Of a stretch of DNA of 47,736 bases, positions 4,778 through 23,378 are shown in pieces. Source of the DNA: a virus (Duplodnaviria; Heunggongvirae; Uroviricota; Caudoviricetes); the IMG/VR virus record IMGVR_UViG_2778261460_000004. One strand, written 5' to 3'. The notes under the pieces were generated by a model, which saw only the letters and a list, made by a program, of their open reading frames with translations, did no database searches and was not told the DNA's origin. How positions within the stretch are numbered: the first letter of the stretch is position 1; every line of letters starts with the position of its first letter. The position numbers and the translations under genes are program-made.

Positions 4778-4836
4778 AAAAAGGGCGGCAGAGCAGTCAC
4801 GAAGTAAAACTGATACCGCCAAACGTCACCAGAAAA
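4778..4836 (-). ncRNA. dicF: DicF small regulatory RNA (ftsZ-targeting sRNA) with 3' terminator-like hairpin
   Basis: Reverse complement of 4784-4836 reads TTTTCTGGTGACGTTTGGCGGTATCAGTTTTACTTCGTGACTGCTCTGCCGCCC followed by a T-run, matching the recalled 53-nt DicF with about 1 mismatch; position between ydfA-type genes and dicB matches the known dicB operon. Confidence 0.75.
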
Positions 4837-15134: not shown

Positions 15135-15345
15135 TTTTATATTGGCGAGGTAACGGGAGTTAAGTAGAATGGCTGCGGGTGCTTGAGGCTATCTGTCTCA
15201 GGCATGAACACCAAAGGCAGATAGAGAAAAGCCCCAGTTAACATTACGCGTCCTGCAAGACGCTTAACATTAATCTGAGGCTCAATCTATGAACGGCAAA
15301 TCTAGGTTAGCCTCTTACGTGCCGAAAGGCAAGGAGAAGCAGGCT

Positions 15346-15501
15346 ATGAAGCAGCAAAAGGCGATGTTAATCGCCCTGATCGTCATCTGTTTAACCGTCA
15401 TAGTGACGGCACTGGTAACGAGGAAAGACCTCTGCGAGGTACGAATCCGAACCGGCCAGACGGAGGTCGCTGTCTTCACAGCTTACGAACCTGAGGAGTA
15501 A
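15346..15501 (+). CDS. hokD: Hok-family type I toxin HokD (RelF)
   Basis: 51-aa product MKQQKAMLIALIVICLTVIVTALVTRKDLCEVRIRTGQTEVAVFTAYEPEE matches recalled HokD; in-frame upstream extension (from 15289) may correspond to a mok-like frame; antisense Sok-like RNA expected upstream but not delimited. Confidence 0.85.
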   Translation: MKQQKAMLIALIVICLTVIVTALVTRKDLCEVRIRTGQTEVAVFTAYEPEE

Positions 15502-19677: not shown

Positions 19678-19753
19678 GGCCCTTTAGCTCAGTGGTGAGA
19701 GCGAGCGACTCATAATCGCCAGGTCGCTGGTTCAAATCCAGCAAGGGCCACCA
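19678..19753 (+). tRNA. tRNA-Ile2-like (anticodon CAU; ileX/ileZ-like), could formally be Met
   Basis: 76 nt GGCCCTTTAGCTCAGTGG...CTCATAA anticodon loop...TTCAAATCC...AAGGGCCACCA; one mismatch in anticodon stem. Confidence 0.8.
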
Positions 19754-19754
19754 A

Positions 19755-19831
19755 TCGCCACTAGCTCATCAGGAAAGAGCGTCAACCCTTTAAGTTGAGT
19801 GTGCGAGGTTCGAGTCCCCGGTGGCGGTCCA
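19755..19831 (+). tRNA. tRNA-like gene, atypical (anticodon loop CCUUUAA, possibly Lys-UUU or a degenerate Arg tRNA)
   Basis: Acceptor stem TCGCCAC/GTGGCGG, T-loop TTCGAGT, 3' CCA present; C at position 33 and one T-stem mismatch make the assignment uncertain. Confidence 0.5.
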
Positions 19832-19833
19832 GT

Positions 19834-19909
<76 letters not shown>

Positions 19910-19912
19910 TAT

Positions 19913-19987
<75 letters not shown>

Positions 19988-20279
19988 GTTAGAGTCTTTC
20001 AGTCTGCGATGATGGGAAATCCCGGAGTGACTGAAAGACGTTTAGGTTATGAATGATCGCCTTTTTTTGCAAAATTGCTGTGCAGAAATACTAACCTTCG
20101 GGCAGGCGATCATTCATAAGCACTCTGCTTTTATTCCGATTAACTGTGGGTGGTTTGTTGGATAGAGTGCTTTCCTTACTGTATATATCGTTTCGCCCGC
20201 TTTTGCGGTTTTTTCTTTTTAAATCCCTTTCATTTCTCAGTGTAAAACTACGCCATCCGTTATTTGCGGAGGTGAGGCT

Positions 20280-20495
20280 ATGAAATCCATGGACAAAATT
20301 TCAACGGGCATTGCCTACGGCACCTCCGCAGGCAGTGCTGGCTACTGGTTTTTACAGTGGCTTGATCAAGTTAGTCCGTCACAGTGGGCTGCGATTGGTG
20401 TACTGGGGAGTCTGATTCTGGGCTTCCTGACTTATCTGACAAATCTGTACTTCAAAATCAGAGAAGACAAGCGTAAGGCTGCACGGGGAGAGTAA
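20280..20495 (+). CDS. Pinholin (S21/EssQ type) with dual start
   Basis: 71 aa [71 protein letters not shown] matches recalled phage 21 S pinholin. Confidence 0.9.
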
Positions 20496-20499
20496 TTCA

Positions 20500-20844
20500 A
20501 TGACTCAAAACTATGAAGTGATTGTGAAAGGGATCCGCAATTTTGAGAATAAAGTTACGGTAACTTTAGCGTTACGGGACAAAAAACGCTTTGACGGTGA
20601 AATTTTTGACCTGGACATCTCGCTGGACCGTGTTGAAGGTGCCGCGCTGGAGTTTTATGAGGCAGCAGCCAGAAGGAGCATCAGACAGGTCTTCCTGGAT
20701 GTTGCTGCCGGGTTATGTGAAGGGAGTGAGCAGTCGCCGGAAAAGCGCCCCGTAATTTTAGAGGCGCATAATGTGTGGATAACCTACAAAGGAAAGCTAC
20801 CGGGAAGAATTACTGGTTCTCTGAAGACTCCACCGAAATGGTAA
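20500..20844 (+). CDS. YdfR-like protein (DUF1327-like) inserted between holin and endolysin
   Basis: 114 aa starting 5 nt after holin stop; synteny essQ-ydfR-rrrQ as in Qin; function unknown. Confidence 0.55.
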   Translation: MTQNYEVIVKGIRNFENKVTVTLALRDKKRFDGEIFDLDISLDRVEGAALEFYEAAARRSIRQVFLDVAAGLCEGSEQSPEKRPVILEAHNVWITYKGKLPGRITGSLKTPPKW

Positions 20845-21082
20845 TTTTACCAGCATATTTTTCTTCCAGTAATGCCGCCAGCCACTTGAAAGAATTTTGT
20901 TGTTCCTGGGACCATTTGGGGTTGCGTGACTCAAGCAGAAGCGATGCCAGTGTTGGTTTCATTTGTTCTTTGGGAATTGAGAAAGCCAGATATGAAAATG
21001 CAACAGTGAGGGCATTTACATCATCCCGAAGCCTGGAAATGCAGTCGAGCAACTCCTGTAGAGAAATGGTGTTATTGTCCAT
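20810..21082 (-). CDS. Hypothetical 90-aa protein, antisense-oriented inside lysis cassette
   Basis: ATG preceded by AAGAGGA at 6-nt spacing on minus strand; divergent from endolysin across a 105-bp region; overlaps ydfR-like 3' end by 35 nt. Confidence 0.4.
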   Translation of the reverse strand: MDNNTISLQELLDCISRLRDDVNALTVAFSYLAFSIPKEQMKPTLASLLLESRNPKWSQEQQNSFKWLAALLEEKYAGKITISVESSENQ

Positions 21083-21187
21083 AAATAATCCTCTTGATTG
21101 TCTTTACCTTTTCCCCGCCTGATTCAACAGGCCGGGACAGATAAACATATCCAGGGTTCAGAAACCGATAAATCCTGATAAATATCC

Positions 21188-21721
21188 ATGAACGCAAAAA
21201 TCAAATACGGCCTGTCAGCGGTCGTTCTGGCGCTGATTGGAGCAGGCGCATCTGCTCCTCAAATACTTGACCAGTTTCTGGATGAAAAAGAGGGTAACCA
21301 CACTACGGCATACCGCGATGGTTCCGGTATATGGACCATCTGTCGTGGTGCCACAATGGTGGATGATAAGCCCGTCATACCGGGAATGAAGCTGTCGAAG
21401 GAAAAATGCGACCAGGTTAACGCTATTGAACGTGATAAGGCGCTGGCATGGGTGGAGCGCAATATTAAAGTACCTCTGACCGAACCACAGAAAGCGGGTA
21501 TAGCGTCATTTTGTCCCTATAACATTGGCCCCGGTAAGTGTTTCCCGTCGACGTTTTATAAGCGGCTGAATGCCGGTGATCGTAAAGGTGCCTGCGAGGC
21601 GATTCGCTGGTGGATTAAGGACAGGGGGCGCGATTGCCGCATTCGTTTAAATAACTGTTATGGTCAGGTTATTCGTCGTGACCAGGAAAGCGCATTAGCC
21701 TGTTGGGGGATAGAGCAGTGA
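21188..21721 (+). CDS. SAR endolysin (T4-lysozyme-type, RrrQ-like)
   Basis: 177 aa; hydrophobic Gly/Ala-rich N-terminal SAR segment ([15 protein letters not shown]); lysozyme catalytic region [20 protein letters not shown]. Confidence 0.9.
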
Positions 21722-22185
21722 GCAGAGTTGCCGCGATTATTTATGCTCTGGTTATCTGCATCATCGTCTGCCTGTCGTGGGCGGTCAATCATTACCGTGA
21801 TAACGCCATCGCCTATAAAGAACAGCGTGATAAAAAAGTCAGTGAGCTGAAGCAGGCGACCGCCACCATTACTGACATGCAGCAGCGCCAGCGTGCTGCT
21901 GATGCACTTGATGCTAAATACACGAAGGAGTTAGCTGATGCGAAAGCTGAAAATGATGCTCTTCGGCGCAAGCTTGATAATGGTGGTCGGGTGTTCGTCA
22001 AAGGGAAATGCCCTGTGCCATCCTCAGCCGAAACCTCCAGCGCCTCCGGCATGGGCAATGATGCCACCGTCGAACTCTCTCCAGTTGCTGGACGAAACGT
22101 TCTCGGTATCCGGGACGGAATCATCAGCGATCAAACAGCACTGAGAACGCTTCAGGAATACATCAGGACGCAATGCCTTCGATGA
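21718..22185 (+). CDS. Spanin inner-membrane subunit Rz
   Basis: GTG start overlapping endolysin stop; N-terminal TM ([27 protein letters not shown]), coiled-coil body; track ORF begins earlier at an alternative start. Confidence 0.8.
21938..22144 (+). CDS. Spanin outer-membrane lipoprotein Rz1, embedded in +1 frame of Rz
   Basis: 68 aa with lipobox (LIMVVGCSS) and Pro-rich segment [16 protein letters not shown]. Confidence 0.7.
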
Positions 22186-22359
22186 TAGCGATAATTTTAC
22201 TTATCATTCTTCACATCTGGCTCTGTAGACAGGGTGGTGAACACTTCTGGAGTGAATCCAGATTAAACATCTCATTGCTGATGCTTGATATTGAGCATAT
22301 TGCGCGCGGTAAGGGGCTGCGTTGAGATAAGAGCCAGTCATTACAAATACCAGGATTTA

Positions 22360-22385
22360 GCCTCGCATTCGCGGGGCTTTTTATT
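22360..22385 (+). terminator. Rho-independent terminator-like hairpin after lysis genes
   Basis: GCCTCGC-ATTC-GCGGGGC followed by TTTTTATT; a second hairpin AAAGCCACT...AGTGGCTTT lies at about 22402-22428. Confidence 0.45.
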
Positions 22386-22676
22386 GCCATTACAAAAGCC
22401 ACTTCCTACAGAGTGGCTTTGATAATGGTTTATACCCTACACGGGATAACTTAACTGATATCCCTTTTAAAGGATAAAGGTATTCAAGCCTGACACATCA
22501 TGCGCTGTATCGTCGCCGTATTCCCGTATTAACAGAGACCGTAGCCCGACGGGGAACTCCTTCTGCGCGAGTGTGCGGGAATAATCAAAAACGATGCACA
22601 CCGGGGTTACCGGGTACACATATTTCATCATGCCAGCGAGTCCGGTTCTGGCGCGGAAGAAACCGGATGTTATTAT

Positions 22677-23102
22677 TTAGTGCGGAAATATTTGTGTAGT
22701 GTTCTGAATGTTCTCAGTAAAGAGTAATGAATTATCAAAGGTATAGTAATACCTTTTGTTTTCGTGGATATTTGTAATCCATCTGAAAACCCCTGCTGTA
22801 GCAAGATTTTTCCTGTATTCGTAAAATGATAACTCTCCTGATTTGAATCCTTTTAATGTGGCTTCTATAAGGCATTTATTTTTTGAAAATCTTACATTTA
22901 CAACCTTACCCTGTCCTTTTATTAAAACCGTATTATCGTTTTCAAGAACAAGATGAATATTCTCTGTGGCTAAATAGTAAATGTAATGTGAGACATTGTG
23001 ACGTTTTAGTTCAGAATAAAACCAGTGATAGTTTAAATTATTTCGCACTTTATCAAATATTTGTTTAAAAATGACTACCTGATCCATAGATAAACCTTCC
23101 AT
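22677..23102 (-). CDS. Hypothetical AT-rich 141-aa protein between Rz and cos (moron position)
   Basis: Strongly AT-rich codon usage unlike flanking phage genes; Tyr/Asn/Lys-rich; no signal peptide or lipobox, so not Bor. Confidence 0.45.
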
Positions 23103-23144: not shown

Positions 23145-23378
23145 TCAATCTGGTCTGACCTGTTTTCTGAGCAATTCAGTAATGTCACTCTTTTCTTTGT
23201 TTGCTTCAGGCGAAACTCTTTTTTCTGAGCACAGTCTCCGGCGGCAGGCTTCAATGACCCAGGCTGAGAAATTCCCGGACCCTTTTTGAACAAGAGCGAT
23301 GTTAATTTGTTCAATCATTTGGTTAGGAAAGCGGATGTTGCGGGTTGTTGTTCTGCGGGTTCTGTTCTTCGTTGACAT
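23145..23378 (-). CDS. YlcI-like ribbon-helix-helix protein (DUF3950-like)
   Basis: 77 aa MSTKNRTRRTTTRNIRFPNQMIEQINIALVQKGSGNFSAWVIEACRRRL... matches recalled DLP12 YlcI. Confidence 0.6.
   Translation of the reverse strand: MSTKNRTRRTTTRNIRFPNQMIEQINIALVQKGSGNFSAWVIEACRRRLCSEKRVSPEANKEKSDITELLRKQVRPD

What the first reader, a model, noticed from the sequence alone, without database searches (positions are those of the whole stretch)
20500..21187. Insertion inside the lysis cassette: YdfR-like gene and a divergently oriented 90-aa gene between holin and endolysin
In phage 21-type cassettes the pinholin and SAR endolysin genes are adjacent. Here about 690 bp separate them. One gene (114 aa) follows the holin in the same direction. 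A second (90 aa, minus strand) has its own good RBS, overlaps the first gene's 3' end and is divergent from the endolysin, implying an independent promoter inside the late operon. The function of either is unknown to me; candidates include lysis-timing control or a lysogen-expressed moron.
Basis: seen in the sequence. Interest (0 to 1): 0.45.

Follow-up and report, generated by a model that had tools for sequence, protein, structure and literature searches.

The report
Swappable backward gene in phage lysis cassette
The DNA between this prophage's holin and endolysin genes holds two real, already annotated genes of unknown function: the common late gene ydfR and a backward-facing 90-aa accessory gene that sits in a slot where related phages carry other small genes.

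Summary
In a phage-21-type cassette, 692 bp separate the pinholin gene from the SAR endolysin gene. This spacer holds ydfR (114 aa, + strand) and a convergent 90-aa ORF on the minus strand that overlaps ydfR by 35 nt.

Both are real genes and both are already annotated. ydfR (DUF1327) is a standard part of Qin-type cassettes and matches 4349 of 5426 complete E. coli genomes. The 90-aa ORF is PHROG 2411. It is intact in 161 of 164 loci and has dN/dS of 0.18-0.28. Relatives at 30-60% identity occur in a Citrobacter prophage, on IncF plasmids, in an iha island, and in the Serratia/Chimaeribacter core genome between dinI and bssS.

The 90-aa gene lies on a ~285-bp, low-GC module that collinear phages lack. 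At the same slot, other phages carry four other small backward ORF families. Every occupied slot has a minus-strand TATGTT motif, and all but one also a GC hairpin. None of the 29 empty slots has the motif.

Best reading: a lysogen-expressed moron encoding a soluble four-helix protein, not a lysis component. Its function is unknown, and the promoter is inferred, not shown. This is ordinary in kind, with a modestly interesting slot architecture.

The parts
20280..20495 (+). Phage-21-type class II holin (pinholin), 71 aa, with dual start Met1/Met4
   Evidence: PF04971 at 1.4e-35 and phrog_9876/phrog_20 'holin'. The MKSMDK start is read directly from the sequence.
20500..20844 (+). ydfR (DUF1327), 114 aa. 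It is a late-operon gene starting 4 nt after the holin stop, and its last codons and stop codon come from the cargo module.
   Evidence: PF07041 at 140 bits; phrog_406 at 3.9e-66. PGAP calls it 'YdfR family protein'. The tail PPKW* contrasts with PPESQP* in cargo-less phages.
20810..21082 (-). 90-aa cargo gene (PHROG 2411). It encodes an acidic, soluble, predicted four-helix protein; residues 81-90 are a tail encoded antisense to ydfR.
   Evidence: phrog_2411 over its full length at 3.2e-57. Intact in 161/164 loci. dN/dS 0.18-0.28 overall, but 0.81 for codons 81-90. AF2 model pLDDT 70.9 with helices 8-17, 22-33, 38-52 and 59-77 and a disordered tail. pI 4.8 and no transmembrane segment.
20838..21125 (.). 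Cargo module of ~285 bp that is absent from collinear phages (boundaries approximate). GC is 43%, against 51% for the window.
   Evidence: Alignment with PhiR40_1 and mEp460. GC content. Present in 1221/5426 complete E. coli genomes.
20741..20767 (-). Possible weak intrinsic terminator for the cargo transcript, lying inside ydfR: stem GCGCCUC/GGGGCGC followed by UUUUCC.
   Evidence: RNAfold dG -12.1, located 45-65 nt after the cargo stop codon. The consensus scan did not call it. This is an inference only.
21089..21095 (-). Shine-Dalgarno sequence AAGAGGA of the cargo gene, 6 nt before the ATG
   Evidence: Read from the sequence.
21113..21137 (-). GC-rich stem-loop in the presumed 5' leader of the cargo transcript
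   Evidence: dG -17.8. An equivalent hairpin (dG -14 to -18) precedes all five cargo families and the Citrobacter homologue.
21144..21154 (-). Conserved motif CTGGATATGTT, containing the -10-like hexamer TATGTT (21149-21144)
   Evidence: Present in 76/76 slots that hold cargo or cargo remnants, and in 0/29 empty slots. Occurs once in the window. Retained in the iha-linked relic and, as TATGAT, in the Citrobacter prophage.
21167..21172 (-). -35-like hexamer TTTATC (3 of 6 matches), 17 nt upstream of TATGTT. It lies in the conserved leader of the endolysin gene.
   Evidence: This region has very low diversity, pi 0.02. It is a weak match and scored below the threshold of the promoter scan.
21188..21721 (+). 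SAR-type endolysin, 177 aa, with an Ala/Gly-rich N-terminal segment and Glu35/Asp44/Thr50
   Evidence: PF00959 at 7e-24; phrog_7 'endolysin'. The triad spacing is read from the translation. Highest hydropathy is at residues 9-27.
21718..22185 (+). Rz spanin gene (start codon uncertain; GTG at 21718 overlaps the endolysin stop), with Rz1 embedded at 21938-22144
   Evidence: PF03245 at 4.2e-29; phrog_13. The embedded 68-aa ORF has a lipoprotein-like N-terminus.

Best explanation
The spacer between holin and endolysin holds two unrelated genes.

(1) ydfR is a regular late gene of Qin/phage-21-type lysis cassettes. It is read from the Q-dependent late transcript directly after the pinholin gene. 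Its product is a soluble, basic protein with a predicted three-strand sheet plus a long helix. The K-12 orthologue binds the catalytic half of RNase E and co-purifies with RNA. My inference is that YdfR acts on host RNA metabolism late in infection, and is not part of the membrane or cell-wall lysis machinery.

(2) The 90-aa gene is a moron. It is a ~285-bp, low-GC cargo module recombined into a fixed slot between the 3' end of ydfR and the leader of the endolysin gene. It faces against the late operon, so it can be expressed only from its own start site. The best candidate start site is the conserved TATGTT motif (21149-21144), followed by a stable 5' stem-loop (21137-21113) and a strong Shine-Dalgarno sequence.

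On this model the gene is expressed in the lysogen, and is overrun when antiterminated late transcription sweeps through. Its product is a small, acidic, soluble four-helix protein. It belongs to an unnamed enterobacterial family that is a core gene between dinI and bssS in Serratia and Chimaeribacter. The protein most likely acts by binding a host protein, as a small stress or physiology modulator.

Shown: both genes are real and under purifying selection; the module is an indel; the slot holds alternative cargo; the motif and hairpin go with the cargo.
Inferred: promoter activity, expression in the lysogen, and any biochemical function.
For: The 90-aa ORF is a real gene:
- ORF integrity 161/164, against 68/164 for the shadow frame.
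- dN/dS 0.18-0.28.
- Homologues at 30-60% identity.
- Confident helical model.

The module is an add-on:
- Indel relative to PhiR40_1 and mEp460.
- GC 43% against 51% for the window.
- Present in 1221 of 5426 E. coli genomes, while ydfR matches 4349.

The slot is exchangeable:
- phrog_2572, phrog_1853, phrog_18136 and phrog_10490 occupy the same place, all reversed.
- Only phrog_10490 shows any similarity to the 2411 family, and it is marginal.

The start-site element:
- The TATGTT motif is in 76/76 slots that are occupied or hold cargo remnants, and all but one of these also have the hairpin. The motif is in 0/29 empty slots.
- The same element precedes the Citrobacter homologue, whose neighbour is the holin gene rather than the endolysin gene.

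The gene is not tied to lysis:
- Core synteny rne-pyrC-dinI-X-bssS-solA in Serratia and Chimaeribacter.
- Copies on IncF plasmids next to an autotransporter gene.
- An intact copy beside iha, with only a relic of the endolysin 5' end.
- An intact copy in strain EPSSH018, where IS3 elements interrupt the holin gene and ydfR.
- No transmembrane segment.

ydfR:
- Binds the RNase E N-terminal half in two-hybrid and pull-down assays, and co-purifies RNA (PMC13232886).
- Overlaps the rrrQ start in K-12 Qin.
Against: - No sigma-70 consensus promoter is detected upstream of the 90-aa gene. TATGTT with TTTATC scores only 7 of 12.
- There is no transcript or protein evidence. No paper mentions the gene.
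- The motif and hairpin could instead serve the + strand late mRNA, for example by protecting or exposing the endolysin leader when a long untranslated spacer lies upstream.
- Frameshifted alleles occur in several genomes, and dN/dS among close copies is only moderately low.
- Fold searches gave only generic helical-repeat matches. PADLOC, Pfam and NCBIfam gave nothing. The proposed 'small regulator' role therefore rests on context alone.
- In the cited study, overproducing YdfR changed few transcripts, so its role at RNase E is unproven.
- The YdfR model is of low confidence (pLDDT 63.5).
Confidence: 0.6

Rival explanations
1. The 90-aa protein (alone or with YdfR) is a lysis regulator that tunes pinholin triggering or SAR-endolysin release.
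For: It sits inside the lysis cassette and overlaps ydfR. The Citrobacter homologue also lies next to a holin gene.
Against: - It is antisense to the late operon, so it would be silenced exactly when the lysis genes are transcribed.
- It has no membrane segment.
- It is absent from most cassettes of this type. For example, only 3 phage records carry it, against 362 records that match the cassette.
- It is a core non-phage gene in Serratia.
- It is kept intact where the lysis genes are destroyed.
- The slot also accepts four other ORF families.
Confidence: 0.08
2. The selected function lies in the transcript, not the protein. Leftward transcription from the slot runs into ydfR and the holin gene, and acts as an antisense or transcriptional-interference lock on leaky lysis-gene expression in lysogens.
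For: - All five cargo families have the same reversed orientation and share the same start element.
- The cargo ORF ends inside ydfR.
- Only a weak terminator-like hairpin follows it, and no terminator is called by the scan.
Against: - The protein is under purifying selection and has distant homologues.
- The gene is kept in places with no holin gene downstream: the iha island, plasmids and the Serratia core genome.
- Many functional cassettes have an empty slot.
- This reading could coexist with a protein function.
Confidence: 0.12
3. The cargo gene is a prophage-encoded defence or superinfection-exclusion factor, as is common at moron hot spots.
For: It sits in an exchangeable hot spot with several alternative small genes. 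It is carried by prophages, plasmids and islands.
Against: - No PADLOC match.
- It is a single small soluble helical protein with no enzymatic or membrane domain.
- It is a conserved core gene at a fixed chromosomal position in Serratia and Chimaeribacter, which is atypical for defence genes.
Confidence: 0.1
4. The minus-strand ORF is not a gene. It is a chance or shadow ORF in a non-coding spacer, or the + strand ORF 20775-21122 is the real one.
For: The + strand shadow frame shares third codon positions and gave a similar or lower dN/dS in the first small sample. Some alleles are frameshifted.
Against: - The shadow frame is broken in 96 of 164 loci, while the 90-aa frame is broken in 3.
- There is a strong Shine-Dalgarno sequence.
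- Homologues at 30-60% identity occur in four other genomic contexts, each with its own start and stop codons.
- The structure model is confidently helical.
Confidence: 0.03

Closest known systems
Morons of lambdoid phages (for example lambda bor, which is transcribed against the late operon just after the lysis genes; concept of Hendrix and Juhala; from my own knowledge)
   Same: - An extra gene that is present in some otherwise collinear phages and absent from others.
- Lower GC than its surroundings.
- Placed in the late region beside the lysis genes and reversed, so it can be expressed from the prophage independently of late transcription.
- K-12 DLP12 carries borD, reversed, right after rzpD.
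   Different: - It lies inside the lysis cassette, between ydfR and the endolysin gene, rather than after it.
- It overlaps the 3' end of ydfR.
- No verified promoter or terminator.
- The product is a soluble protein, not a lipoprotein, and no phenotype is known.
- The slot shares one start element among five cargo families.
Phage 21 / DLP12 pinholin-SAR endolysin cassette (S21-R21-Rz/Rz1)
   Same: - P21-type holin with a dual start.
- Lysozyme with an N-terminal SAR-like segment and the E35/D44/T50 spacing.
- Embedded Rz1.
   Different: S and R are adjacent in DLP12. Here, 692 bp carrying two genes lie between them.
K-12 Qin cassette essQ-ydfR-rrrQ, with YdfR (P76160, DUF1327)
   Same: Same gene order and the same YdfR family. 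The K-12 protein binds the RNase E N-terminal half.
   Different: - K-12 ydfR encodes 103 aa and overlaps the rrrQ start, and there is no cargo module.
- Here YdfR is 114 aa with a module-derived tail, and the endolysin gene starts 343 nt after the ydfR stop.
Unnamed chromosomal gene between dinI and bssS in Serratia and Chimaeribacter (for example P0207, P0204, P0226)
   Same: Same protein family: profile E-values 1e-20 to 1e-23 and 33-39% identity. The conserved core pattern is L-x2-L-x6-V-x2-L-x2-AF-x-YL ... ES.
   Different: It is a core gene with fixed synteny, not on a mobile element. It has a different upstream region, without the TATGTT-hairpin element. E. coli K-12 has no gene at that position.

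Membership tests
Phage-21-type pinholin/SAR-endolysin lysis cassette | Class II holin of the P21 S family with a dual-start motif | tested here: met
   PF04971 at 121.5 bits against a cut-off of 26. The protein begins MKSMDK, with Met1 and Met4.
Phage-21-type pinholin/SAR-endolysin lysis cassette | Endolysin with an N-terminal signal-anchor-release segment and a Glu-8aa-Asp-5aa-Thr catalytic triad | tested here: met
   PF00959 at 85 bits. The N-terminus is Ala/Gly-rich, with maximal hydropathy at residues 9-27. E35, D44 and T50 are read from the translation. Release from the membrane cannot be tested here.
Phage-21-type pinholin/SAR-endolysin lysis cassette | Rz/Rz1 spanin pair downstream, with Rz1 embedded | tested here: met
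   PF03245 at 101.8 bits; phrog_13. A 68-aa ORF with a lipoprotein-like start lies inside the Rz gene.
YdfR / DUF1327 (PF07041) | Profile match above the curated cut-off | tested here: met
   140.4 bits against a cut-off of 25, covering residues 1-112. phrog_406 at 3.9e-66.
YdfR / DUF1327 (PF07041) | Binding to the RNase E N-terminal half, as reported for K-12 YdfR | not testable with these tools
   Reported only for the K-12 protein (PMC13232886). The interaction surface mapped to residues 1-72, which is the conserved part of the family.
PHROG 2411 (the 90-aa family) | Full-length profile match | tested here: met
   3.2e-57 over residues 1-90 of a 90-position profile. The Citrobacter and Serratia homologues also match it.
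Moron (independent transcription unit added to a phage genome) | Present in some phages and absent from otherwise collinear relatives | tested here: met
   A ~285-bp indel relative to PhiR40_1 and mEp460. Of 105 slots, 29 are empty.
Moron (independent transcription unit added to a phage genome) | Base composition differs from the flanking phage genes | tested here: met
   GC is 0.431, against 0.47-0.52 for the neighbouring genes and 0.513 for the window.
Moron (independent transcription unit added to a phage genome) | Own promoter and terminator | tested here: inconclusive
   No consensus promoter or terminator is found. A conserved -10-like TATGTT with a 5' hairpin goes with the cargo in 76/76 occupied slots against 0/29 empty slots. 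A weak hairpin followed by UUUU lies 45-65 nt after the stop codon.
Moron (independent transcription unit added to a phage genome) | Expressed from the repressed prophage | not testable with these tools
   No transcript data could be found, and no paper mentions the gene.
Antiholin or membrane-bound lysis regulator | Transmembrane or membrane-associated segment, co-transcribed with the holin gene | tested here: not met
   The maximal 19-residue hydropathy is 0.88. The gene lies on the strand opposite to the holin gene.
Known anti-phage defence systems (PADLOC-DB) | Match to a defence-protein model | tested here: not met
   No hit at E <= 1 for the 90-aa protein, for YdfR, or for two homologues.

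The most novel reading that the evidence does not exclude
The junction between ydfR and the endolysin gene in phage-21-type cassettes is a dedicated 'socket'. A conserved outward-facing start element (TATGTT plus a 5' stem-loop) drives whichever of at least five interchangeable small cargo genes is plugged in. Its leftward transcription into ydfR and the pinholin gene would double as an antisense safety catch on lysis-gene leakage in lysogens. The 2411-family cargo would be a stress-response modulator captured from the dinI-bssS neighbourhood of Yersiniaceae.
Probability: 0.12. Interest if true: 0.6.

Novelty: new member of a known kind. Interest (0 to 1): 0.33.

Why it matters
About one complete E. 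coli genome in five, including BL21, carries this 90-aa gene. Most carry ydfR. Neither gene has a known function. Placing the 90-aa gene in a family with a fixed chromosomal home in Serratia gives two tractable systems for finding its phenotype. Defining a slot with a shared start element and five alternative cargo genes gives a concrete place to look for lysogen-expressed prophage functions. None of this changes current understanding of lysis, and the kind of feature (a moron next to lysis genes) is familiar.

Tried and rejected
- **Codon-position and dN/dS test on the first 25 unique sequences.** This could not separate the 90-aa frame from the + strand shadow frame (0.38 against 0.29), because the two frames share third positions. 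More divergent loci, ORF integrity and distant homologues resolved it.
- **Sequence searches.** PDB sequence searches for both proteins found nothing. Pfam at E <= 10 on 18 family members gave no recurrent hit. NCBIfam and PADLOC gave nothing.
- **LexA box or shared promoter upstream of the Serratia homologues.** None was seen.
- **Known RNA families in 20000-22500.** None.
- **Search for the motif-hairpin element in other contexts.** My pattern was too narrow and returned only phrog_1853 slots next to the endolysin gene.
- **P0033-based locus search.** No loci were found.
- **Literature.** Searches for the protein accessions, PHROG number or 'ybl58' returned no papers. A search on morons with holin/endolysin found nothing about this slot.
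- **Homology among cargo families.** I considered that the alternative cargo ORFs might all be distant homologues. hhalign gives 34% probability for phrog_10490 only, and under 1% for phrog_2572, phrog_1853 and phrog_18136.

Full report
**Context.** The window is a lambdoid prophage of the Escherichia type. Upstream of the finding lie a Q-like antiterminator (DUF1133), a DNA methylase and four tRNA genes. Downstream lie the Nu1/terminase, portal, head and tail genes. The lysis cassette is of the phage-21 type.
- The 71-aa holin belongs to the P21 S family and has the MKSM dual start.
- The 177-aa lysozyme has an Ala/Gly-rich N-terminus and Glu35/Asp44/Thr50.
- Rz has an embedded Rz1.

**Observation.**
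- ydfR (20500-20844, 114 aa) starts 4 nt after the holin stop.
- A 90-aa ORF runs on the minus strand from 21082 to 20810, behind AAGAGGA plus a 6-nt spacer. It overlaps the ydfR 3' end by 35 nt.
- The endolysin ATG is at 21188.

The arrangement is common and already annotated. At least 80% of the 1451-bp region is found in 1029 of 5426 complete E. coli genomes. There PGAP annotates 'class II holin / YdfR family protein / hypothetical protein / lysozyme'. PHROGs holds both proteins, as phrog_406 and phrog_2411, both of unknown function.

**Is the minus-strand ORF a gene?** A first codon-position test was uninformative. The + strand shadow ORF (20775-21122) shares third codon positions with the 90-aa frame and gave a similar dN/dS. 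With 164 loci the picture is clear.
- The 90-aa frame is intact in 161 loci and the shadow frame in only 68. Variable sites fall 16/14/35 on codon positions 1/2/3.
- Against diverged copies with dS of about 1, dN/dS is 0.18-0.25. Within the close set it is 0.19 for codons 1-57, 0.40 for codons 58-80, and 0.81 for codons 81-90.
- An exhaustive profile search, followed by a profile-seeded search, found full-length relatives at 30-60% identity in Citrobacter, Serratia, Chimaeribacter, Sodalis, Gibbsiella and Acerihabitans.
- AlphaFold gives a four-helix protein (pLDDT 70.9) with residues 80-90 disordered.
- The protein is acidic (pI 4.8) and has no membrane segment.

So the gene is real. Its functional core is residues 1 to about 80. 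The last ten codons are a by-product of reading into ydfR.

**What is inserted and what is not.** ydfR is a standard part of Qin-type cassettes. It matches 4349 of 5426 genomes, and in K-12 Qin its stop overlaps the rrrQ start. K-12 DLP12 shows the S-R-adjacent form without ydfR.

The 90-aa gene does sit on an indel. Compared with phages PhiR40_1 and mEp460, the window has ~285 extra bases (about 20838-21125). These replace the last codons of ydfR (PPKW* instead of PPESQP*) and end about 60 bp before the endolysin ATG. The module has 43% GC, against 51% for the window, and occurs in 1221 of 5426 complete genomes.

**The slot.** Other phages carry different reversed ORFs at the same place.
- Stx2 phage 86 has orf6 (phrog_1853, 104 aa).
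- PhiR63_1 has an unannotated 86-aa ORF (phrog_2572).
- IMG/VR contigs add phrog_18136 (87-91 aa) and phrog_10490 (95 aa).
- Only phrog_10490 shows marginal similarity to the 2411 family (hhalign probability 34%). The other three show none.

I examined 105 IMG/VR loci that contain the exact 27-nt endolysin leader.
- 71 carry one of the five cargo families.
- 5 carry remnants: a 52-aa ORF in three loci, an IS insertion, and a deletion.
- 29 are empty.

All 76 occupied or remnant slots carry, on the cargo strand, CCC(Y)GGATATGTT. In all but the deletion remnant this is followed after 12-17 nt by a GC-rich stem-loop (dG -14 to -18) and then, 40-55 nt on, the cargo ATG. None of the 29 empty slots has the motif. 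These counts are not corrected for relatedness.

In the window the motif is at 21154-21144, the hairpin at 21137-21113, and the motif is unique in the window. In a Citrobacter freundii prophage the 2411 homologue sits divergently upstream of the holin gene, not the endolysin gene. It is still preceded by CCCTGGTTATGAT and a near-identical hairpin. The element therefore travels with the cargo rather than with the endolysin gene.

I read the element as a weak -10 (TATGTT, paired with TTTATC at 17 nt in the E. coli slots) plus a 5' stabilising stem-loop. It scores below the threshold of consensus scans, and nothing here shows that it fires. An alternative reading is a + strand RNA element that serves endolysin expression when a long untranslated spacer lies upstream. 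The Citrobacter case argues against that alternative.

**Where else the gene lives.**
- In Serratia and Chimaeribacter it is a core gene in the fixed order rne-ABM-pyrC-dinI-X-bssS-solA. There it has its own leader after the dinI terminator and no LexA box.
- E. coli K-12 has the same neighbourhood with a 286-bp gap and no gene between dinI and bssS.
- About 72 conjugative IncF plasmids carry a copy at 63% identity, 300 bp downstream of an autotransporter gene.
- Sixty genomes carry a copy at 75% nucleotide identity beside iha, among IS elements. This copy still has the TATGTT motif and a decayed relic of the first ~17 endolysin codons, yet the 90-aa ORF is intact.
- In strain EPSSH018 an identical module is intact while IS3 copies interrupt the holin gene and ydfR.

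These contexts argue that the gene is kept for a function unrelated to lysis.

**Function.** No library names the family, and fold searches return only generic helical repeats. The best-supported statement is that it is a soluble, small helical protein that probably works by binding another protein, and that it is expressed outside the late programme.

ydfR is much less diverse than the flanking holin and lysozyme genes in the same loci (pi 0.01-0.06 against 0.12-0.29 and 0.04-0.18). I cannot explain this.

**Verdict.** The feature is a familiar kind of thing: an accessory gene (moron) beside phage lysis genes, next to a common uncharacterised late gene. Both genes are already annotated. The modest added value is threefold:
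- the family's chromosomal home in Yersiniaceae;
- the five-way exchangeable slot;
- the motif-hairpin element that goes with the cargo.

Whether that element is a promoter, and whether leftward transcription affects the holin gene, can be settled with simple transcript mapping.

Noticed in passing
window 20500-20790, compared with 20280-20495 and 21188-21721: Across 86 unique cassette sequences, ydfR has far lower nucleotide diversity (pi 0.013-0.06) than the flanking holin gene (0.12-0.29) and lysozyme gene (0.04-0.18). This includes synonymous sites. It could reflect a recent sweep, a recombination boundary or an RNA-level constraint; I could not tell which.
   Followed up: no
L084:1320-1580 (-), L086:1577-1891 (-), and IMG/VR loci L204, L206, L254: Four further small reversed ORF families (phrog_2572, phrog_1853, phrog_18136, phrog_10490) occupy the same slot between ydfR and the endolysin gene in other phages. 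The PhiR63_1 ORF is not annotated in its GenBank record.
   Followed up: partly
L168:6001-6285, L175:4001-4282, L179:4001-4270: The 90-aa family is a core chromosomal gene between dinI and bssS in Serratia and Chimaeribacter, a few kb from rne. E. coli K-12 has an empty 286-bp gap at the syntenic position (L187).
   Followed up: partly
L184:3946-4218 (-) and upstream to 4350: A copy of the 90-aa gene at 75% identity lies beside iha in an IS-rich island in 60 complete E. coli genomes. It still has a decayed relic of the endolysin 5' end upstream, while the ORF itself is intact.
   Followed up: yes
L186 (E. coli EPSSH018, NZ_CP125889.1 159500-166500): A cassette whose ydfR and cargo module are 100% identical to the window has IS3 insertions in the holin gene and in the ydfR 3' end. 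The 90-aa ORF and the lysozyme gene remain intact.
   Followed up: no
L188:4989-5267 and L183:3967-4221: About 72 conjugative IncF plasmids of E. coli carry a 63%-identical homologue roughly 300 bp downstream of a large autotransporter gene.
   Followed up: no
L171:6239-6430 (-): In the Citrobacter freundii prophage the 2411 homologue overlaps, 3'-to-3' by 14 nt, a 63-aa ORF on the opposite strand that has no Pfam match. This is the same convergent-overlap geometry as with ydfR.
   Followed up: no
window 19678-19987: Four tRNA genes lie between the methylase gene and the holin gene. ARAGORN calls the first tRNA-Met (CAT), while PGAP calls the equivalent gene in strain E2 tRNA-Ile. The others are Lys (TTT), Thr (TGT) and Gly (TCC).
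   Followed up: no
window 22677-23102 (-) and 23145-23378 (-): Two more reversed genes lie just after the spanin genes: one DUF1398 (YdfO/YbcV-like) and one DUF3950 (YnfO-like). A hairpin followed by a T-run at 22359-22378 (+) lies between them and Rz. This looks like a second moron site.
   Followed up: no
window 4783-4834 (-) and 15177-15351 (+): There are Rfam matches to DicF RNA (75 bits) and to the sok antitoxin RNA of a hok/sok locus (110 bits) elsewhere in the prophage.
   Followed up: no
proteins P0137 and P0158; L086:761-1567; L084:821-1372: YdfR proteins share residues 1 to about 112 but have very different C-terminal extensions (103 to 296 aa in total). Some carry an internal duplication of the N-terminal domain. 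The variable tails begin exactly at the left edge of the cargo slot.
   Followed up: partly
proteins P0043, P0046, P0049, P0050, P0056, P0063: Several E. coli genomes carry 94-aa frameshift variants of the 90-aa gene. They diverge after about residue 57 (after about residue 38 in P0063) into the +1 frame, so the C-terminal half is lost in some prophages.
   Followed up: no
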